From Escherichia phage sortkaff, in sequence record MN850581.1: a stretch of DNA of 42,446 bases; one strand, written 5' to 3'. The notes below the pieces were generated by a model. It had not been told where the DNA came from and did no database searches. It saw only the letters and a program-made list of their open reading frames with translations. The position numbers were made by a program, and so were the translations under genes. How positions within the stretch are numbered: the first letter of the stretch is position 1; each line of letters starts with the position of its first letter. Positions 10,927 to 32,860 of this stretch are shown piece by piece.

Positions 10927-10949
10927 GGGGCCTTGCGGCCCCTTTTTTT
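10927..10949 (+). terminator. rho-independent terminator of the lysis operon
   Basis: GGGGCC-ttgc-GGCCCC followed by T7; the T-tract overlaps the stop of the convergent Ig-like gene. Confidence 0.75.
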
Positions 10950-11949
10950 ATGCGGTGACGGTGAGAGCGCAAGCCGTGGAGGTTGCAGTCTTTCCGCCCG
11001 CGTCAGTAACGCGGCAAGTGTAGGATCCTGCGTCGCCAGACGCCGCTCCGGTTTTCGTGAACGTGGCCGACGTTGCGCCGGAAACTGCTACGCCATCCTT
11101 AAGCCACTGATAGGTTAACGGGGCTACGCCGCCGGAAGCCTGCACAGGGCCGATCGAGATATTGCCACCAGTAGCGACGGAGGACGTCGCCGGGGGCTGC
11201 GTCGTAAACGCCGGGAGCGTGTTTAACGTCACGGCGCAAGCCTGAGACGTAACGGAGCCTTGCGGCACGGCGCTGTCCTTCACAATACACGTATACGTCG
11301 CATTGTCCCCGGTCGCGGCGGTTTTGGTATACGTGGCCGCCGTGGCCCCGGCGATGTTTACGCCGTTTTTCTGCCACTGGTAGGAGTACGGCGCGAGGCC
11401 GCCAGCCGCTGCGACGGTCAGCGTCAACGGGTCGCCGATGTAGACGGCTTTAGTCGGCGTCAGGTTGGTAGAGAGGGACAGGGCGACTTTGAGGCGGATC
11501 CGCTGGGAGTCCTTCGTCTGGCCCTGGCTGTCCGTCACGGTCACGTAATAGTCGCCGTTGTTGCTCGCCTGGTAGTTGGCGATCGCATAGCTCGGCGAGT
11601 TGGATCCGACGTTAACAGTCGTCCCGCCGGAGACTTTCTTCCACTGGTAGGACAGCGGAGCGATCCCCCCAGAGGCGGCGACGGTCAGCGTCTGCGTTGC
11701 GCCAGCCGCGACGAAGGTCGATCCGGCATCACCGCCAGCCACGCCGGGGAGGTCCTGCGTAAACACGATCGGAGGTAGCAGGTTCGGATCGTACTCGATG
11801 TAAAACATTTTCGTGGGGTCGAGGTTAGTCGGGTCAGCGTCTAACCAGATAAGATCTTTTTGCGGAGTCGCGCCGCTGGCCGGATCCTCGATCCGGGTGA
11901 CTTTCCAGCCCAGCAAGTCCGGGCGGTAGTAGCGATGCCAGTAACCCAT
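10948..11949 (-). CDS. protein with three tandem bacterial Ig-like domains after a 95-aa N-terminal domain
   Basis: 333 aa; three repeats of about 80 aa each containing P(L/Y)(S/T)YQW(K/Q/L)K and Y(Y/T)(V/C) motifs typical of Ig-like folds; RBS GAGGA; bounded by terminators on both sides. Confidence 0.8.
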   Translation of the reverse strand: MGYWHRYYRPDLLGWKVTRIEDPASGATPQKDLIWLDADPTNLDPTKMFYIEYDPNLLPPIVFTQDLPGVAGGDAGSTFVAAGATQTLTVAASGGIAPLSYQWKKVSGGTTVNVGSNSPSYAIANYQASNNGDYYVTVTDSQGQTKDSQRIRLKVALSLSTNLTPTKAVYIGDPLTLTVAAAGGLAPYSYQWQKNGVNIAGATAATYTKTAATGDNATYTCIVKDSAVPQGSVTSQACAVTLNTLPAFTTQPPATSSVATGGNISIGPVQASGGVAPLTYQWLKDGVAVSGATSATFTKTGAASGDAGSYTCRVTDAGGKTATSTACALTVTA

Positions 11950-22139: not shown

Positions 22140-22514
22140 TTGAGCGATATCGACGGCATCAAAACGATCGAGGCGATTGTGGACATTATCGCCCGCACTT
22201 TCCACGAGGCTAATCGCGCCTATTGCCAGGCACTGGGCGACGATAGTCAAAAGAGCTGGGACGAGGCCCCGGAGTGGCAGCGGGAGAGCGCCCGTAACGG
22301 CGTACTGTTCCACCTTAACGGCGATCACGGCCCGGAAGCCAGTCACGAGTCCTGGCTGGCTGAGAAGCGCGCACAGGGCTGGAAATATGGCCCGGTTAAG
22401 GATGCCGAAGCGAAAGAGCATCCTTGCTTTGTGCCTTATAGCGAGCTGCCGCCGGAGCAAAAAGCGAAAGATTACATTTTCCGCGCGATCGTCCACGCGC
22501 TCGGCAAAGCGTAA
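22140..22514 (+). CDS. hypothetical protein, RyR-domain-like
   Basis: 124 aa, apparent TTG start; motifs SHESWLAEKRAQGWKYGPVKD and HPCFVPYSELPPEQKAKD recalled as typical of phage RyR-domain proteins. Confidence 0.55.
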   Translation: MSDIDGIKTIEAIVDIIARTFHEANRAYCQALGDDSQKSWDEAPEWQRESARNGVLFHLNGDHGPEASHESWLAEKRAQGWKYGPVKDAEAKEHPCFVPYSELPPEQKAKDYIFRAIVHALGKA

Positions 22515-22538
22515 TTGTTAAATCGGTATCGAGAGAAA

Positions 22539-22562
22539 GGGGCCTGAGCGGCCCCTTTTTTA
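22539..22562. terminator. bidirectional rho-independent terminator between convergent replication and tail operons
   Basis: GGGGCC-tgagc-GGCCCC followed by T6 on plus; U-rich after the hairpin on minus. Confidence 0.75.
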
Positions 22563-22565
22563 TGG

Positions 22566-24929
22566 CTACGGCCCGGAGGTGATACGCGGGCGCGTTACGA
22601 TCTGCTTGTACATCCTGATCTGAGTCTCCGCCGGGACCGCCGTCTGGATAGGGTCGGCAATGTCCACAACGATCGGCTTGCCCGTATCGTCCGGCGGCGT
22701 CTGGTACGGAGGGCGGACGACCGTCGTAACGAGGTCAGCGCCACCAGCGCCAGCGCCGGGGATAACGATCCGCGTACCGGGGGACAGCATCGTGGTATAG
22801 AGCCACGGGGATCCGGTACTCGTGCCGTTAGGCGTCAGCCATTGGGTGATCGACTTCTGGCCGACACTGGCGGCGAGGATCTTCGCCTGGTTCCCGGTCG
22901 GGAAGTACGCGCCAGCCTCGACGACCAGATAAGGCTTAAGCCCTACGATCCCATTAGGACCGCCCGCCGGGTCGTTGCTGCCATAGTCATAAGTCCAGAC
23001 CAGATCGCCCCGGTCAAACTCGCGGCCACACGGGAAGAAATTACCGTACCCGCCGTGGGAGGTGATATCAGGGAAAAACTGCTTAGACACTCCCCCCAGC
23101 ATGGCCCCCAGAGAGCCGTCAATATTGACGTACATCCGGGCCTCGACGTTACAGTTAATCATGTTGATATTGCTGTAACGGCATTTGCTCCACGCCTGCG
23201 TTACCGGGTTCAGGCTGTTCACGTTCATCATGTTCAGCACGGACTTAGTACGAATGTACTGGCCGGAGGAGGTGGTCCCGCCTGCGGAGTCGTCGCCGAT
23301 CGCGTCCAGCTCCCAGAAATTCACGTTAAACATGTCGAGCTGAGTCGCCACGCCGAAGATCGTCAGCTTATAGCAGTCGATGTTTTCCAGCTTAACGCGG
23401 TTGTCGTGCGGCGCACGGTTGACGCCTGCGGTCGGGTCGCCGGGGTCGGCTGCTACCGGGCAGTAAACGCGGCCAGTTTTCGTCTTAACGTTGCGGATCG
23501 TGTAGTTGCGCGGCGCGGACTGGCGAGGCGGCCCCCATTCCATATGGATGATTCGCAGATCGTGGACGTCGGTCGTCGCGTTGCCGACGGGTTCCCCGGT
23601 CACGCCGTCGATCACGAAGTCTTTACAGCCAGACGTGTAGATCCCGGCGGTGGTGATACCAGTCCCCACGGACTTGTTAACGTCAGGGTTTACGCAAACA
23701 TTCTCGATCACGAAGTCGCGGCCCATTTCAACGTGAATACACTGTTTACACGCATTAACAAGGACGTTACGGATCGTGAAGTTGCGCGCGTAGTTTTCAT
23801 CAGGCAGATCCCAGCCGTAAGGGCCTTTGCCCGCCACGCCGATCCCCAGCCCCCAGTTAGACGCAAAGCTGCCGGGGTTAATCCCGTCGATGTTGTCGAG
23901 GAGGATATTTTCGATCACGCATCCATCCTGGAAACACTGGTGGACCACGTTAAGCTCGATCCCGTCGCCCTGCATGTTGACGAAAGCGAGGTTGCGGAAG
24001 ATGCCGCGCGACATAAACGCATTCCCGCCCTGGTGAATGATGCCGTTATAGCCGTTGGTAAACAGACAACCGTCGATCTCGATCGTTCCCCAGATCTGCG
24101 GGCCGCCGGATTGTACGCCCTGGATGTTGATATGGCTGTTATTGCTGCCGCCGGGGATCCCGTCGTACCAGCAATCGAACATCCTCACGTCGCCGCCGTC
24201 ATGGCGCATACGGTGGCCGTTACGGCCATTAACGCCGCGTAGGGTGGTATTCTGACACCACATCGAACGACCGCGCCACGTACCGCCGATAACCTCGCAA
24301 TTCACGAAGCGGGGATCGTTGCCAGTCAGCGTCCAGTCGCCGCCGAAAATGCGAATATTGGAGGCAGTCAGGATCCCGTTAGTGGTCCCTTTCCAGCCGT
24401 CCGCCCGGACGTCGAGGCCGTTCGCGCTGGCGTAGTCAAACATGGCCTGTAAAGCTGCCGTTACAGTTGCGTAAGGTGCTTTGCCGACGAAGTTCCACGG
24501 CGTCACATAGCCGTTTAGCTGCTCCTGCACATTGCCGACGGGCGTCCCGACGTACTTCGCCCCGTTCTGGGACAGAAGCAAATTCCACATCTGGACGGGA
24601 TCATATTTAAAGAGATTGGAAAAGGTGAAGATCACGACGTCGTTTTGGTCTGCGACGACCATAGACGACTCAATTTTGGTGATCAGCTTGACCACTTGAC
24701 CATTCCAGACCGGGAAGCCTGCGACGTTCGTCCGCACGGGTTGCGGGATAGGCGTCAGGGTCCCGTCCTCGTTCTCGACGTAGACCTGGACCTGGTTCGC
24801 CGGGTTAGTGGGATCCGTGTCAGCCTTTCCCGCGTAGATCTTCCCGTTCGCCAGCGCGGCGAAACGGTCGTTGCGAAAGAAAGGTTGCGACGGCATTCCC
24901 AGATTGGAAAAGACCTCAAGATCTGCCAT
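22566..24929 (-). CDS. tailspike protein with P22 gp9-type N-terminal head-binding domain and right-handed beta-helix-like receptor-binding domain
   Basis: 787 aa; N-terminal about 110 aa align with P22 tailspike recalled from memory (FAALANGKIYAGKADTDPTNPANQVQVYVENEDG ... NGQVVKLI versus [34 protein letters not shown] ... NGQLVKIV); the rest is divergent, Gly/Asn-rich and repetitive. Confidence 0.85.
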   Translation of the reverse strand: MADLEVFSNLGMPSQPFFRNDRFAALANGKIYAGKADTDPTNPANQVQVYVENEDGTLTPIPQPVRTNVAGFPVWNGQVVKLITKIESSMVVADQNDVVIFTFSNLFKYDPVQMWNLLLSQNGAKYVGTPVGNVQEQLNGYVTPWNFVGKAPYATVTAALQAMFDYASANGLDVRADGWKGTTNGILTASNIRIFGGDWTLTGNDPRFVNCEVIGGTWRGRSMWCQNTTLRGVNGRNGHRMRHDGGDVRMFDCWYDGIPGGSNNSHINIQGVQSGGPQIWGTIEIDGCLFTNGYNGIIHQGGNAFMSRGIFRNLAFVNMQGDGIELNVVHQCFQDGCVIENILLDNIDGINPGSFASNWGLGIGVAGKGPYGWDLPDENYARNFTIRNVLVNACKQCIHVEMGRDFVIENVCVNPDVNKSVGTGITTAGIYTSGCKDFVIDGVTGEPVGNATTDVHDLRIIHMEWGPPRQSAPRNYTIRNVKTKTGRVYCPVAADPGDPTAGVNRAPHDNRVKLENIDCYKLTIFGVATQLDMFNVNFWELDAIGDDSAGGTTSSGQYIRTKSVLNMMNVNSLNPVTQAWSKCRYSNINMINCNVEARMYVNIDGSLGAMLGGVSKQFFPDITSHGGYGNFFPCGREFDRGDLVWTYDYGSNDPAGGPNGIVGLKPYLVVEAGAYFPTGNQAKILAASVGQKSITQWLTPNGTSTGSPWLYTTMLSPGTRIVIPGAGAGGADLVTTVVRPPYQTPPDDTGKPIVVDIADPIQTAVPAETQIRMYKQIVTRPRITSGP

Positions 24930-24967
24930 TTATCGCTCCATTAGAAAGGGGGCTTGCGCCCCCGTTG

Positions 24968-27900
24968 TTACTGCTGGTTATCGTCTGCGGCGGCTCGTCC
25001 GCCAGCGCCCGAAAAGAAGCCCACGATCCCGGCCCGGTTAACTGCTGCCTGTTCCTCCGGGGTCATGGCTGCGAATAGCTCGCGCCACTGGGGGGAATTT
25101 GCCATTTCGCGCTCGGCTTCGTTGACGAAAGTCCGGCCCGCCGGGGTGAGCTTGCCGGAGCTTTGCGCCGCTGCTGCCTGCATGAGTTTATTAAAATTCG
25201 TGCCGGATAGCACATTATCCGCAAGGACCGATCGCGGGACACGGTTCGCACGGGCCAGGCCCTGGGCTGCGGACAATGCGGCGTTACCTGCCGGACCTGC
25301 TGCGGCGTATGCTGCGGCATGTTTCCCGATCCACCCAGCCGCGCCGTAGAGCTTGGACAGCGGACCGCCAGCTCCCGGATCGTCGAAGCGTTTCACGAAG
25401 TCATTGATCGCCCCGGTGGTCGTGGTGAAACGTTGTGCGCGGTCGATACCATTCGCGACGCGGTAGATCTGCATGAAGCGGACGCGCTGCTCTCGCGGTA
25501 GGTGCTTCATAACGTTCCCCAGAGTGCCGTTAGCCTGCGCCGTCTTGTACCAGTCCACGAAGCCGGGGACGGCGAAAGTATTACGCGCGCTACGTGCGCC
25601 CAGGGTACGCTCCAGCGCGTTAGCCACTACCTCGCCTTTGAGGCTCTCCGGGGTTGCCGCCATCAGCTTGTCCCAGTCGCGGGCGCTGCCGCCTTTCTTG
25701 CCCAGGTTAAGGATCGCGTTTTGCACTTTCCCGGTGATCGAGTCGTTGAGGTTTTTCCCCAGCGTGTCGATCGCGATCGTCTCCAGGTCCTTACGACGCT
25801 TAACGAGCTGTTTCCCCACGTTCCAGTCGTCCGCCGCGCCGTACTTGGCCGCGATAGCCTCCTGATCCTCGGTTAATCGCGCGTAGAGCTGTTTTAGCGC
25901 TGCCTTGTCGGAGTCCACAAACGGACCGGATCGCGTGTTAAGCGCCTGGCCTACCTGTCGGCGGAGCTTGTCCAGACGGGCATAAGTCGGCGGCCCCATA
26001 GAGTCGTTAACAGGCTGGAGCCAGTCCAGCGCCTTACGCTCTGCCGCGTCCAGCGTCCCCAGCCCCTCTACGTCCGCCTTGTCCCAGATATGGCGTAACG
26101 TGTTGTTTGCGTCCACGGTTTCGTTTTTCGGGATTTTGGTCGCGATCTGGTTATAAACGTCGTCCGCCTGTTTCCCCAGGTCGTCAATAATGGCACGGGT
26201 GCGGGTGCTAAACGCCTGATCGATCGTCTGCGCGTTCATGGTCCCCATGCTGTCGATCAGCTCGTCCGCTTTCCCGGCCAGACGTCCGATCCCTTCGAGC
26301 TGCTGGGCTTCCAGATTGGAGCCTTTGCGGCTAACGAGCTGCTGGACCGTCGCGCGGAACTGAGGATCACGCGCATAAGCCGCCGGGGTCAGCGAATCCT
26401 CGATCCCCAGTTGCTGGGCGGTGCGCATCAGCTTTTTGTCCACGTCGGCCATGTTCGCAAGGTCGATCGTGTCCTGGGAGGCCCGGAGGTTCTCGCCGTT
26501 CGGCGCGGCCACGTTCTCGTCGCCAGTAAAGCGGAATTTGCTTTGATCGCGGGCCACGGCGTCCGAAATGTTGGCCTCGGTGGCCGCCGGGGTCGGTGCT
26601 GCATCGCCAGCGGCACGAGAAGCCGCTCCAGCTTCCTCCCAGACGCCCTTAGCCGCATTCCATACCTTGCTTGCTCCGCCGATAAGCGCACGGCCTACGG
26701 CCTCGCCAGCGGGCGCTAGTGCGATGTTAGTCAGCGTCTCCTCCGGGTCGCCACGGCCAGCCGCGATCGAGCCGGGAACGGCACGAGCCGCCGGAGCTGC
26801 CACCCATTTCTCCACGCCATCGGCGACGCGGGTCAAAACGCTGGCGACTTCTGGGCTTGCGCGCTCTGCGAGGCCCATCAGCTCCGTAGCTGCTTTGGCC
26901 TTACCTGCGGACGGCAACGGCGCGAGGAGGTCCCCGATCAGGGTCCCGATCTGCGCGTATTTGTCGGTAGGCGGTTCGAAGCCGGGGATCGTCCCCGGCG
27001 GGATGTTCGGCGCTTGCGTGTCCTGGTCAACGATACCCAGCGACTTACCCGCATCCGTGGCCGCGTTGGAAACCATATTGACCAGCGAGATCGGCGTGTT
27101 GAGGAGGTCGATCCCGGTCTGGACGATACCGCGCCCGCCCTGGTCGAGAGCGTGGAGCGCGGTCTGGCCTAACTGTTCCCAGTTTTGGGCGGCTTGCTCG
27201 TTGGGATCGACGGATCCAGGGGCCTGTCCGGCTTGATCAGCGCTGCCCGGCTCTCCGTTACCGTTCGGCGCTGCCGCCCCTCGTGCGACATTAGATCCCG
27301 CTTGATTAGGTGCATTGCCAGCGGGGACGGCTGCGACTTGCTGATCGGCCCCTCCGGCTCCGGCGGTTGCGCCATTTTCTCCAGCTCCGGCGGTAAAGGT
27401 TCCTGCTTCGTCGAACTGGTCGAAAAAGTTACCAGAAGATTTAGAGCCATCCCGGCGGGCGCTGGTTGCGCGCTGAATAGGTTCGCCGCTATCGCCAGCC
27501 CCTCGACTAGTCCACTCGTTAAAACGTTCATCCACATATTGACGCCCCTCCGGGCCGGGGGTTGCCTGGCCCGCCAGTTGTTTGTCTACGTTGCCGGGGC
27601 CGTCGTGGTAAGCCTGGAGCGCAAGGCCCCAGTCTCCGTAACGCTGGTACATCTGGGAAAGGTACTGAGCCCCGGCGTCAGCCTGGAGCGCCGGATCGCT
27701 CTTGAGAGCGTTCCAGTCGTAACCCATATCCTCCGCCGTGCCTTTCATGACCTGCGTTAAACCGTGCGCGCCTTTGCTGGAGACGGCGGACGTAGGATCC
27801 GCCGTGCCGCCCGTTTCCTTGCTCGCGAGTGCCGTCATGATGCCAGCGGGTAGGCCCCATCGTGCCCCGGCGCTCTCCAGTAAATCAGAATACCCGCCGC

Positions 27901-27991
27901 CCGACGATCCCGCTTGAGACGGAATCTGATTAGGGAGCGCCGTCGCATTTTTCGGCATGTTCTGATCAAACTGGTCGAAGAAATTCGCCAT
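24968..27991 (-). CDS. internal virion / ejection protein with N-terminal soluble lytic transglycosylase (SLT) domain
   Basis: 1007 aa; SLT motifs KETGG ... GAHGLTQVM ... AGAQYL ... AYHDGPGNV; Ala/Gly/Gln-rich remainder; occupies the position of P22 gene 16. Confidence 0.8.
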   Translation of the reverse strand: MANFFDQFDQNMPKNATALPNQIPSQAGSSGGGYSDLLESAGARWGLPAGIMTALASKETGGTADPTSAVSSKGAHGLTQVMKGTAEDMGYDWNALKSDPALQADAGAQYLSQMYQRYGDWGLALQAYHDGPGNVDKQLAGQATPGPEGRQYVDERFNEWTSRGAGDSGEPIQRATSARRDGSKSSGNFFDQFDEAGTFTAGAGENGATAGAGGADQQVAAVPAGNAPNQAGSNVARGAAAPNGNGEPGSADQAGQAPGSVDPNEQAAQNWEQLGQTALHALDQGGRGIVQTGIDLLNTPISLVNMVSNAATDAGKSLGIVDQDTQAPNIPPGTIPGFEPPTDKYAQIGTLIGDLLAPLPSAGKAKAATELMGLAERASPEVASVLTRVADGVEKWVAAPAARAVPGSIAAGRGDPEETLTNIALAPAGEAVGRALIGGASKVWNAAKGVWEEAGAASRAAGDAAPTPAATEANISDAVARDQSKFRFTGDENVAAPNGENLRASQDTIDLANMADVDKKLMRTAQQLGIEDSLTPAAYARDPQFRATVQQLVSRKGSNLEAQQLEGIGRLAGKADELIDSMGTMNAQTIDQAFSTRTRAIIDDLGKQADDVYNQIATKIPKNETVDANNTLRHIWDKADVEGLGTLDAAERKALDWLQPVNDSMGPPTYARLDKLRRQVGQALNTRSGPFVDSDKAALKQLYARLTEDQEAIAAKYGAADDWNVGKQLVKRRKDLETIAIDTLGKNLNDSITGKVQNAILNLGKKGGSARDWDKLMAATPESLKGEVVANALERTLGARSARNTFAVPGFVDWYKTAQANGTLGNVMKHLPREQRVRFMQIYRVANGIDRAQRFTTTTGAINDFVKRFDDPGAGGPLSKLYGAAGWIGKHAAAYAAAGPAGNAALSAAQGLARANRVPRSVLADNVLSGTNFNKLMQAAAAQSSGKLTPAGRTFVNEAEREMANSPQWRELFAAMTPEEQAAVNRAGIVGFFSGAGGRAAADDNQQ

Positions 27992-30934: not shown

Positions 30935-32395
30935 TTAGCTTACGCGGACGCGCGCACGGGACAGCGTGGCAGGCGTAGCGCCTACGGTGCGGATCTTGAA
31001 TCCGACGACGGTCCGGCAACGTCCGACCTTGTGCAAAATAACGCGTTTTAGCCACTGCTGCGGCGTGTTGTAGTCGATCAGGATCTCCTGTCCGAATACG
31101 CTCCCGTCCTCCGTGGCGCTGATCCACATCCGGCTCGTTACGCTGTCGCCGCCCACGCTGGCGTCGATCTCGAAGTCGCTTAACATCATGCCCGTAAACG
31201 GCATCAGCGGCGTATAGAGGACGATCTCCTGGTCTGCCCCGTACTGCGCGCAAGTGGTCATATCAAACGCGCCCAGTACCGCCAGCGTCTTGTCTCCGAC
31301 CGTTACGCGGTTCCCTTCGTTAACGTAGTCGATCGCGCGGTGCGGTCCGCTGGCATTTTGTACGCCCGTTTTAATGATCGTCCAGACCGGGAGGCCCTGC
31401 GCCTGGCTAACCGGGTGATCGTAGACGAGCGTTTGATCCGGTAAGTGGACAATAAGCAATTTATGGCTTTCAAAGCTGATCGCCTCCAGTCGCGTTTGTT
31501 GGAGCTGGGCCACGGTGTACCCGGCCAGAATCTTTTTAACCTGCACGGAGGCCAGATCAGACCAGTCTCCGCCGCCGGGGTTCATCAGCGCGATCGTGTA
31601 CTCGCCCACGAAAGGCGACGTAAGAAATGCGAAGCTGTTCAGGTACTGGCATACGGTTTCACGGCCCAGCGTCCCGGCCTCGACGGTGTAGGATGGCTGA
31701 TTGGCGTAAACGTTCTGGGCGTCCCCGGTCAGGCCGAAAAACTCGATCGAGGCGGTCCCGAAGCAAATCACGTAATCGCGCCACGCCCTGATCGCCACGA
31801 TGCCGTCCGGCATGGACTCCGCACGATAGAACGGCGCGATCTTGTCCGGGTGGCTCTCGTCCTCCAGCGAGGAGATCCAGAAAGTGTCCGAATTTTTCAC
31901 GCTGAAAATGTAGCGCTGGCGGAGGTGGCACACGTCGTTAATGTCGCCCCAGGTGAATTGCGGGTTGTTGACGCCCGTCCCGGAGTCCAGCGGCCAGTTA
32001 CTAAACGTCTTGCGGGTCCCGTCGTAGCGGTAGAGTAAGAGCTGGTTTCCGGTCACGACGCCCTGAGAATCGCGGCTATGGGCCATAGGAGTACGATCCT
32101 CGCCGTTGACGTCGCCGACCTCCACGCCTGCGTTATACAGCTTGCCGCCCATTACCCTATAAGCGGAGTTCGAAACCGTGTTCCAGTCGGAGCCACGGGA
32201 CAGGCCCGCCACGTCCGCGACTTTCTTAAGCCCCGGCATCATGCGCATATAGCCGTTACCGCCCTTAATCTGGCGAGCAATGGCGAGCATGTTCTCCGGT
32301 AGCCGGGTGATCCAGTCGAAGTCCGTCCGGCTGCGGCCATCACCGAAAACGATCGGCAGGTTAACGACCTGCCCGCGTTGCGCATAAGCTCCCAT
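30935..32395 (-). CDS. tail hub protein (P22 gp10-like by position and size)
   Basis: 486-aa ORF; synteny with the P22 late operon. Confidence 0.6.
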   Translation of the reverse strand: MGAYAQRGQVVNLPIVFGDGRSRTDFDWITRLPENMLAIARQIKGGNGYMRMMPGLKKVADVAGLSRGSDWNTVSNSAYRVMGGKLYNAGVEVGDVNGEDRTPMAHSRDSQGVVTGNQLLLYRYDGTRKTFSNWPLDSGTGVNNPQFTWGDINDVCHLRQRYIFSVKNSDTFWISSLEDESHPDKIAPFYRAESMPDGIVAIRAWRDYVICFGTASIEFFGLTGDAQNVYANQPSYTVEAGTLGRETVCQYLNSFAFLTSPFVGEYTIALMNPGGGDWSDLASVQVKKILAGYTVAQLQQTRLEAISFESHKLLIVHLPDQTLVYDHPVSQAQGLPVWTIIKTGVQNASGPHRAIDYVNEGNRVTVGDKTLAVLGAFDMTTCAQYGADQEIVLYTPLMPFTGMMLSDFEIDASVGGDSVTSRMWISATEDGSVFGQEILIDYNTPQQWLKRVILHKVGRCRTVVGFKIRTVGATPATLSRARVRVS

Positions 32396-32404
32396 GCTCG
32401 CCCC

Positions 32405-32860
32405 TTAGTTGGCCGTGTCGTCGTCGTAAAAGCGGCTATGCGCCCAGGTCGATTGATTCCCCGCCCCGGTCGGCATGTCGTTACGGCGTTTGAGCGTCGG
32501 CACTTCGTAGAATGCCACCTTAATGTCGTCCCATTTCTCCTTAAGGAGCGCCCGGACGTCTGCGGGGAGTTCCATCTGGTTATCGATCAGCATCCTTTGT
32601 GCCATCTTGAGCGCGATCGCCTCCAGCGTCCACAGCTCCAGACCGGAGTCCTCGTTGCCATCGGGGATCCCGTCGGAGTTGGTGGTGAAGATGTACGGAA
32701 AATTCAGGTTATCCTTGATACACTCCGCCATAAAAGCCTCTAAATCAGTCAGCCCGTCAACGACGGACTGCTGATCGGCAATTAGGAGGGTTGCAGTCGA
32801 GGACAGGCCCGCACGGCGTAACGCCTGGTTAACGATCCTGATCTTCTGCAACGTCGCCAT
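32405..32860 (-). CDS. tail adaptor protein (P22 gp4-like)
   Basis: 151 aa; motifs DLEAFMAEC and MPTGAGNQ resemble P22 gp4 as recalled; synteny. Confidence 0.65.
   Translation of the reverse strand: MATLQKIRIVNQALRRAGLSSTATLLIADQQSVVDGLTDLEAFMAECIKDNLNFPYIFTTNSDGIPDGNEDSGLELWTLEAIALKMAQRMLIDNQMELPADVRALLKEKWDDIKVAFYEVPTLKRRNDMPTGAGNQSTWAHSRFYDDDTAN

What the first reader, a model, noticed from the sequence alone, without database searches (positions are those of the whole stretch)
22566..24929. Chimeric tailspike: conserved P22-type head-binding domain joined to a divergent receptor-binding domain
Only the first roughly 110 residues match P22 gp9 closely; the remainder is Gly/Asn/Asp-rich with repetitive short beta-strand-like segments suggesting a right-handed beta-helix depolymerase with different specificity. 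This is the expected host-range module and marks a recombination junction near residue 110 (around 24600).
Basis: partly seen in the sequence, partly recalled or inferred. Interest (0 to 1): 0.35.

Follow-up and report, generated by a model that had tools for sequence, protein, structure and literature searches.

The report
P22-type tailspike carrying a colanidase domain
This gene encodes a phage tailspike whose first ~113 residues are the P22-type tail-attachment domain and whose remainder is a known enzyme type that digests the slime polysaccharide colanic acid. A near-identical gene is already annotated in a published phage, so the finding is real but ordinary.

Summary
ORF 22566..24929 (-) encodes 787 aa. 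Residues 9-112 match Pfam Head_binding (E 1e-34), with 51% identity to P22 gp9 residues 14-113. Nothing beyond residue 113 resembles gp9.

The rest is not an orphan domain. It belongs to the colanidase tailspike family:
- PHROG 6117, E 1e-243.
- 40% identity to the biochemically characterised NST1 colanic-acid hydrolase.

The window is a Sortsnevirus podophage genome, about 97% identical to Klebsiella phage vB_KpnS_IME279. That phage's tailspike is 98.7% identical and annotated "colanic acid degradation". Sortsne's (88.8%) is annotated "putative tailspike colanidase".

The homology switch lies at residues 113-118 (about 24576-24593), close to the predicted 24600. It is inherited, not recent: the same two-domain architecture occurs in more than 20 protein clusters. 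Exchange at this point is nevertheless real:
- N- and C-domain identities are discordant among relatives.
- A syntenic metagenomic phage keeps the N-domain but carries a different receptor-binding domain.

Verdict: already known; low interest.

The parts
22566..24929 (-). Tailspike gene, 787 codons plus TAG stop
   Evidence: ORF list. GC3 is 75.6%. The product is 98.7% identical to the IME279 protein and 88.8% to Sortsne's 'putative tailspike colanidase'.
24591..24929 (-). N-terminal P22-type 'head-binding' (tail-hub attachment) domain, aa 1-113
   Evidence: PF09008, E 1e-34. Matches P22 gp9 at 51% identity over aa 14-112 and Sf6 gp14 over aa 8-121, E 2e-31. The model matches 1LKT, 7SG7 and 8TVR with TM 0.70-0.81.
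24423..24590 (-). Hinge and helical neck/cap, aa 114-169; first part of the colanidase module
   Evidence: Homology to phi92 gp150 starts at aa 115 and to NST1 CAE at aa 117. pLDDT is low (52-63) over aa 101-140, and helices are predicted at 110-118, 122-126, 133-137 and 155-169.
23295..24422 (-). Right-handed parallel beta-helix catalytic domain, aa ~170-545
23946..23972 (-). Motif GDGIELNVV (aa 320-328) with invariant D321, E324, N326: candidate catalytic acids
   Evidence: Invariant in the 35-sequence alignment. Conserved in gp150, NST1 CAE and E. coli WcaM. A catalytic role is inferred, not shown.
23724..23747 (-). Motif QCIHVEMG (aa 395-402) with invariant Q395, H398, E400: candidate catalytic/substrate residues
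   Evidence: In NST1 CAE, Q395 and E400 are conserved but H398 reads F.
22569..23294 (-). C-terminal domain(s), aa ~546-787, conserved with gp150 and NST1 CAE
24936..24939 (-). Shine-Dalgarno GGAG, 6 nt upstream of the ATG
   Evidence: Read directly from the sequence. Invariant in four sortsneviruses.
22531..22561 (.). Bidirectional intrinsic terminator (A-tract, GGGGCC-loop-GGCCCC, T-tract) shared with the convergent gene
   Evidence: Folds at -18.3 and -20.9 kcal/mol, z -3.3 and -3.5. Conserved in relatives. The pattern scan missed it.
30935..32860 (-). Tail-hub partners of the N-domain: gp10-like (30935..32395) and gp4-like (32405..32860)
   Evidence: PF11134 Phage_stabilise, E 2e-138. PF11650 P22_Tail-4, E 3e-22.

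Best explanation
The gene encodes the tailspike of a virulent Sortsnevirus-type podophage that has a P22-like tail machine.

**Attachment module.** Residues 1-113 form the P22/Sf6-type 'head-binding' domain. By homology, this domain docks a tailspike trimer onto the gp4/gp10-like tail hub encoded a few kb upstream of it on the minus strand.

**Enzyme module.** After a flexible hinge and helical neck, residues ~170-787 form a colanidase of the phi92 gp150 / NST1 CAE type. It consists of a right-handed beta-helix plus C-terminal domain(s).

**Inferred action.** The enzyme binds and endo-hydrolyses colanic acid, or a colanic-acid-like capsule, into repeat units. This lets the virion tunnel through the exopolysaccharide to the outer membrane, where the needle and ejection proteins take over. 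Candidate catalytic residues are D321, E324 and E400.

**Shown here:** domain homologies, fold, genomic context, modular exchange among relatives.

**Inferred:** trimer state, hub binding, substrate, catalytic residues.
For: **N-domain.** PF09008. Sequence matches to P22 and Sf6. Structural matches. Hub proteins are present in the window.

**Enzyme module.**
- PHROG 6117 'colanic acid degradation', E 1e-243.
- 40% identity over 670 aligned columns to NST1 CAE, E 1e-138.
- NST1 CAE releases 1148-Da colanic acid repeat units and creates reducing ends (PMC9143390). J8-65, whose tailspike is 87% identical to NST1's, lowers high-MW colanic acid (PMC4179555).

**Host argument.** The 88.8%-identical Sortsne tailspike belongs to a phage isolated on E. 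coli K-12 MG1655 (PMC7552041). From general knowledge, K-12 lacks O-antigen and K capsule, which leaves colanic acid as the polysaccharide target.

**Conserved residues.** Acidic and polar residues are invariant across 35 homologues.
Against: - No assay exists for this protein or for any Sortsnevirus tailspike.
- I found no published identification of the catalytic residues of this family, so D321/E324/E400 rest on conservation only.
- The nearest relative was isolated on Klebsiella pneumoniae, whose surface polysaccharide is normally a K capsule rather than colanic acid.
- The structure is a monomer prediction (pLDDT 83), not a trimer.
Confidence: 0.85

Rival explanations
1. The same fold and enzyme class, but the natural substrate is a Klebsiella (or Kosakonia) capsule that resembles colanic acid, such as the K108 type, instead of or in addition to colanic acid itself.
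For: The closest phage, IME279, has K. pneumoniae as host, and Kc237 (84.8%) has Kosakonia. DepoCatalog lists 'colanidase-like' Klebsiella depolymerases (Dep108.1, KP24gp307). It also cites work showing that K108 CPS is similar to colanic acid. All ten amino-acid differences from IME279 lie in the beta-helix core, aa 279-421.
Against: Sortsne's 88.8%-identical tailspike serves a phage grown on E. coli K-12. The differences from IME279 are mostly synonymous (48 against 10 codons), which looks like an imported patch rather than a change of specificity. This rival overlaps the best explanation and does not exclude it.
Confidence: 0.25
2. The junction near 24600 marks a recent acquisition of a foreign receptor-binding domain by this particular phage lineage.
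For: The N-domain is slightly lower in GC (55.5% against 59.2%). Domain swaps clearly occur in this family.
Against: Nucleotide identity to IME279 is 97-100% on both sides of the junction. GC3 matches the rest of the genome. The same Head_binding + colanidase architecture is present in 23 protein clusters and in Sortsnevirus, Murrayvirus, Giessenvirus, Skarprettervirus and Kc166B.
Confidence: 0.05
3. The C-terminal part only binds polysaccharide and has lost catalysis, making it an adhesin rather than a depolymerase.
For: No direct activity data exist. The catalytic residues of the family are not experimentally defined.
Against: D321, E324, N326, Q395 and E400 are invariant across all 35 aligned homologues, including in the active enzyme NST1 CAE; H398 is conserved in gp150 and WcaM but reads F in NST1 CAE. 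Identity to NST1 CAE is 40% over the whole module.
Confidence: 0.05
4. The protein is a full-length, diverged P22 gp9-type endorhamnosidase.
For: Both are beta-helix tailspikes, and Foldseek lists full-length P22 TSP.
Against: BLASTP finds nothing beyond residue 112. TM to full-length P22 TSP is only 0.24-0.28, against 0.77 for 6E0V.
Confidence: 0.01

Closest known systems
Tailspike of Klebsiella phage vB_KpnS_IME279 (YP_009792818, 'colanic acid degradation') and of Escherichia phage Sortsne (QBZ71594, 'putative tailspike colanidase')
   Same: Same length (787 aa) and same two-module architecture. Same genomic position, after the SLT-containing ejection protein gene. Identity is 98.7% and 88.8%.
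   Different: There are ten substitutions relative to IME279, all within aa 279-421. The flanking genes differ.
Phage phi92 gp150 colanidase tailspike (PDB 6E0V)
   Different: Identity is only about 28-29%. gp150 belongs to a myovirus and has no P22-type N-domain. Related myovirus proteins carry PF18668-type N-terminal adaptors instead.
Phage NST1 colanic acid-degrading enzyme (ADI49571, HM214492) and Bonnellvirus J8-65 tailspike
   Same: 40% identity over aa 117-770. It is the experimentally characterised reference for the family (PMC9143390, PMC4179555).
   Different: Its N-terminal 160 aa are unrelated, being an adaptor for a phiKMV-like tail.
P22 gp9 / Sf6 gp14 tailspikes
   Same: The N-terminal hub-binding domain (51-54% identity) and the overall logic of adaptor, hinge and beta-helix enzyme.
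   Different: The receptor-binding enzyme is unrelated in sequence and has a different substrate: O-antigen endorhamnosidase against an exopolysaccharide hydrolase.
E. coli WcaM (colanic acid cluster protein; TIGR04004, Pfam PF27800 'WcaM')
   Same: 32% identity over aa 215-442, conserving D321, E324, N326, H398 and E400. Both fall in the same Pfam family.
   Different: WcaM is a 464-aa bacterial protein with no phage adaptor and no matching C-terminal domain. The query scores 81 bits against an equivalog cut-off of 795.

Membership tests
P22-type tailspike head-binding domain (Pfam PF09008) | Sequence match above Pfam's gathering score at the protein N-terminus | tested here: met
   119.3 bits against a cut-off of 24; aa 9-112 cover profile positions 9-112 of 113.
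P22-type tailspike head-binding domain (Pfam PF09008) | Fold of the solved P22 / Sf6 N-terminal domains | tested here: met
   Foldseek TM (target-normalised) is 0.81 to 1LKT, 0.70-0.71 to 7SG7 and 0.71 to 8TVR. The first 23 residues have low confidence.
P22-type tailspike head-binding domain (Pfam PF09008) | Encoded in a phage with the P22-type tail hub (gp4, gp10) to which it docks | tested here: met
   PF11134 E 2e-138 at 30935..32395 and PF11650 E 3e-22 at 32405..32860. gp7-, gp20- and SLT-type ejection genes lie alongside.
P22-type tailspike head-binding domain (Pfam PF09008) | Physical attachment of the trimer to the hub in the virion | not testable with these tools
   Requires cryo-EM or biochemical reconstitution.
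Colanidase tailspike family (phi92 gp150 / NST1 CAE; PHROG 6117; Pfam PF27800) | Full-module sequence homology to gp150 and to NST1 CAE | tested here: met
   E 4e-60 over aa 115-775; E 1e-138 at 40% identity over aa 117-770; PHROG 6117 E 1e-243.
Colanidase tailspike family (phi92 gp150 / NST1 CAE; PHROG 6117; Pfam PF27800) | Beta-helix plus C-terminal domain fold of 6E0V | tested here: met
Colanidase tailspike family (phi92 gp150 / NST1 CAE; PHROG 6117; Pfam PF27800) | Conservation of the family's active-site residues | tested here: inconclusive
   D321, E324, N326, Q395, H398 and E400 are invariant in the 35 sequences. I found no publication defining the catalytic residues, so the correspondence is presumed.
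Colanidase tailspike family (phi92 gp150 / NST1 CAE; PHROG 6117; Pfam PF27800) | Hydrolysis of colanic acid to repeat units | not testable with these tools
   Shown only for NST1 CAE (PMC9143390) and, at phage level, for J8-65 (PMC4179555).
P22 gp9 endorhamnosidase receptor-binding domain | Sequence similarity over gp9 residues ~125-666 | tested here: not met
   No alignment beyond residue 112 with E below 0.1. PDB hits to P22 TSP cover aa 13-113 only.
WcaM equivalog (TIGR04004 / NF007517) | Score above the curated equivalog cut-off | tested here: not met
   81.5 bits against 794.6, matching aa 216-444 only. It is a homologue, not WcaM.

The most novel reading that the evidence does not exclude
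The phage colanidase core and the host protein WcaM share one active site (D321/E324/E400 equivalents). On this reading, the tailspike enzyme and the last gene of the host's own colanic-acid cluster are two versions of one hydrolase, exchanged between bacteria and phages. One nearly unchanged receptor-binding domain (85-99% identical) would then let sortsneviruses adsorb to Escherichia, Klebsiella and Kosakonia through a shared colanic-acid-like exopolysaccharide. The homology is already recorded in Pfam (PF27800 'WcaM'). The functional reading of WcaM and the cross-genus receptor use are untested.
Probability: 0.3. Interest if true: 0.35.

Novelty: already known. Interest (0 to 1): 0.12.

Why it matters
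The gene is the host-range determinant of this phage. It is a textbook-style example of tailspike modularity, with a conserved tail adaptor fused to an exchangeable polysaccharide-degrading enzyme. Its practical value is modest. Colanidases are used to strip colanic acid or EPS, for example from plasmid preparations, biofilms and phage cocktails, and this is one more variant. Nothing here changes current understanding.

Tried and rejected
- **Full-length similarity to P22 gp9.** Rejected by BLASTP and by structure.
- **Antisense 466-aa ORF 22842..24242 (+) as a real gene.** Rejected. It has no family hits, and its GC1 of 76% mirrors the tailspike's GC3.
- **Exact-sequence look-up of the protein in the 15-billion collection.** Not found, so the source phage could not be named.
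- **The local Pfam copy.** It lacks a model for the C-terminal module, so only PF09008 was reported. The precomputed annotations show PF27800 'WcaM'.
- **The terminator pattern scan.** It missed the bidirectional terminator after the gene. Folding found it.
- **Literature search for WcaM together with tailspike.** Nothing returned. I found no publication describing the 6E0V structure or its catalytic residues.
- **P0035's alternative receptor-binding domain.** It has no solved relative beyond the neck.
- **The Enterobacter chromosomal homologue P0030.** It lies in neither a prophage nor an EPS cluster.

Full report
**1. What is there**

The ORF at 22566..24929 on the minus strand is real and encodes 787 aa.
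- Its GC3 is 75.6%, like neighbouring genes. The 466-aa antisense ORF inside it (22842..24242, +) has GC1 76% and no family match, so it is a compositional artefact.
- A GGAG lies 6 nt upstream of the ATG.
- A stable hairpin flanked by an A-tract and a T-tract (22531-22561) follows the stop codon. It serves as a bidirectional terminator shared with the convergent gene.

**2. Identity of the window**

The window is a complete, circularly permuted genome of a Sortsnevirus-type podophage. It is 97-98% identical in nucleotides to Klebsiella phage vB_KpnS_IME279, about 84% to Kosakonia phage Kc237 and about 80% to Escherichia phage Sortsne.

The tailspike protein compares as follows:

| Phage | Identity | Annotation |
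|---|---|---|
| IME279 | 98.7% | 'colanic acid degradation' / 'tail fibers protein' |
| Sortsne | 88.8% | 'putative tailspike colanidase' |
| Kc237 | 84.8% | 'tail fibers protein' |

The exact sequence is not in the large protein collection.

The gene closes a P22-like tail module. In the window this comprises gp4-like (PF11650), gp10-like (PF11134, E 2e-138), a gene whose IME279 counterpart is annotated 'tail needle protein' (no family hit in the window itself), gp7-like, gp20-like, and an SLT-domain ejection protein.

**3. N-terminal module**

- Residues 9-112 match PF09008 Head_binding (E 1e-34).
- P22 gp9 aligns at 51% identity over residues 14-112, with nothing significant afterwards.
- Sf6 gp14 aligns over residues 8-121 (E 2e-31).
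- The AlphaFold model (pLDDT 83) matches the solved P22 and Sf6 N-domains with TM 0.70-0.81.
- Model confidence drops to 52-63 over residues 101-140, consistent with a flexible hinge.

**4. C-terminal module**

This is not an orphan domain.
- PHROG 6117 'colanic acid degradation' matches residues 48-780 (E 1e-243).
- NST1 CAE is the experimentally characterised colanic-acid hydrolase. It is 40% identical over residues 117-770 (E 1e-138). It yields 1148-Da repeat units and new reducing ends (PMC9143390).
- Phage J8-65 has a tailspike 87% identical to NST1's. [quoted passage not shown]
- In a 35-sequence alignment, Q299, D321, E324, N326, Q395, H398 and E400 are invariant. D321/E324 and E400 are my candidate catalytic acids. 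This is an inference from conservation only.
- The C-terminal composition is Gly 12.9%, Asn 8.2% and Asp 6.1%.

**5. The junction**

- Homology to P22-type proteins ends at residues 112-121.
- Homology to colanidases from other tail types starts at residue 115 (gp150), 117-118 (NST1, Bonnellvirus) or 129 (phiWec myoviruses).
- It is not a recent event in this genome. Identity to IME279 is 98-100% on both sides, and the Head_binding + PF27800 architecture occurs in 23 protein clusters. Matches over ≥98% of the protein length occur in Sortsnevirus, Murrayvirus, Giessenvirus and Skarprettervirus phages and in the Kc166B lineage.

Exchange around this boundary is nonetheless demonstrable.
- N-domain and C-domain identities are discordant among relatives. 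P0003/P0005 are N 48% and C 89%. P0019/P0023 are N 100% and C 65%. The query against P0021 is N 77% and C 44%.
- Twenty-residue profiles place break zones both near residue 113 and near residues 165-200.
- The metagenomic contig L008 (40 kb) is syntenic with the window at 72-76% nucleotide identity. It carries a 623-aa tailspike with a related N-domain, clearly alignable over residues 9-105, and an unrelated receptor-binding domain.
- Nucleotide homology between L008 and the window is lost from 24766 to 22110. This span covers the receptor-binding part plus the small neighbouring gene.
- The colanidase module itself is found behind at least four kinds of N-terminal adaptor: PF09008, PF18668, PF12571, and phiKMV-type.

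**6. Mechanism (mostly inferred)**

1. Trimers dock by the N-domain to the gp4/gp10-like hub.
2. The beta-helix binds and cleaves colanic acid or a similar capsule.
3. The virion reaches the outer membrane, where the needle and ejection proteins act.

Sortsne grows on E. coli K-12. From general knowledge, K-12 has neither O-antigen nor K capsule, which favours colanic acid as the substrate.

The Klebsiella host of IME279 keeps open a colanic-acid-like capsule as substrate. DepoCatalog describes 'colanidase-like' Klebsiella depolymerases and cites work showing that K108 CPS resembles colanic acid.

**7. Side observations**

- The beta-helix core is homologous to host WcaM: 32% identity over residues 215-442, with the invariant acids conserved. 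Pfam PF27800 is in fact named 'WcaM'. The query is far below the WcaM equivalog cut-off.
- All ten amino-acid differences from IME279 lie in residues 279-421. Forty-one of the 64 nucleotide differences fall in nt 751-1350 (binomial p 8e-11). Differing codons are mostly synonymous, 48 against 10, which suggests an imported patch.
- The flanks of the tailspike gene are mosaic. The upstream SLT ejection gene is only 45-89% identical to IME279.
- The downstream gene is replaced outright. Here it encodes a RyR-domain protein. In IME_EC2 it is DUF2829, and in L008 it is an Acb2/Tad1-hairpin gene.

**8. Verdict**

The 'divergent' domain is a known colanidase, and the junction is an inherited module boundary. 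This is an already annotated kind of protein in an already described phage genus. Interest is low.

Noticed in passing
window 22140..22514 (+): The gene convergent with the tailspike encodes a RyR-domain protein (PF02026, E 2e-12) and sits in a hypervariable slot. IME279 has an unrelated 79-aa ORF there, IME_EC2 a DUF2829 gene, and the syntenic contig L008 an Acb2/Tad1-hairpin (anti-defence sponge type) gene. Homology to IME279 breaks exactly at this gene's stop codon.
   Followed up: partly
window 24948..24963 (-): A GC hairpin, GGGGGC-GCAA-GCCCCC, lies between the stop of the SLT ejection gene and the tailspike RBS. Its stem is invariant and its loop variable in four sortsneviruses. A short T-run follows, five T's in Sortsne. 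It may be a leaky terminator or a transcript-stabilising element.
   Followed up: partly
window 24968..27991 (-): The SLT-domain ejection protein gene is much more diverged from IME279 (45-89% per 150 nt) than the adjacent tailspike (95-100%). It has a ~40-nt indel in its Ala/Gly/Pro-rich C-terminus. A mosaic boundary therefore lies at the tailspike start.
   Followed up: partly
window 23667..24095 (-), tailspike aa 279-421: All ten amino-acid differences from the IME279 tailspike, and 41 of 64 nucleotide differences, cluster in the catalytic beta-helix core (binomial p 8e-11). Most differing codons are synonymous (48 against 10), suggesting a small imported recombination patch.
   Followed up: partly
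tailspike aa 215-442; L011 6506-7897 (E. coli K-12 wcaM): Host WcaM, the last gene of the colanic acid cluster, is 32% identical to the tailspike's beta-helix core and keeps D321, E324, N326, H398 and E400. Pfam PF27800, which covers the phage domain, is named 'WcaM'. This hints that WcaM is itself a colanic-acid hydrolase.
   Followed up: partly
L012 9001-10785: A 594-aa chromosomal Enterobacter homologue of the colanidase module (31% identity over 80% of the query, no phage adaptor) lies next to a yfaZ-family gene. No phage or EPS genes are nearby.
   Followed up: partly
window 10948..11949 (-): A 333-aa protein made of Ig-like and PKD repeats (Hoc-like / 'tail protein' PHROGs) is encoded away from the structural module, among early and replication genes.
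   Followed up: no
window 22842..24242 (+): A 466-aa antisense ORF lies inside the tailspike gene. It has no family hits, and its GC1 of 76% mirrors the sense-frame GC3. It is a high-GC artefact.
   Followed up: yes
whole window: The window is a circular permutation of the IME279 genome map (window 4563 corresponds to IME279 nt 1). Overall GC is 59.4%, higher than in the enterobacterial hosts of its relatives.
   Followed up: partly
tailspike aa 22-107 vs PDB 6TGF: The N-domain also matches the N-terminal 'head' domain of the bacterial stewartan hydrolase WceF of Pantoea stewartii (E 3e-5). This resemblance is already described in PMC7949094.
   Followed up: partly
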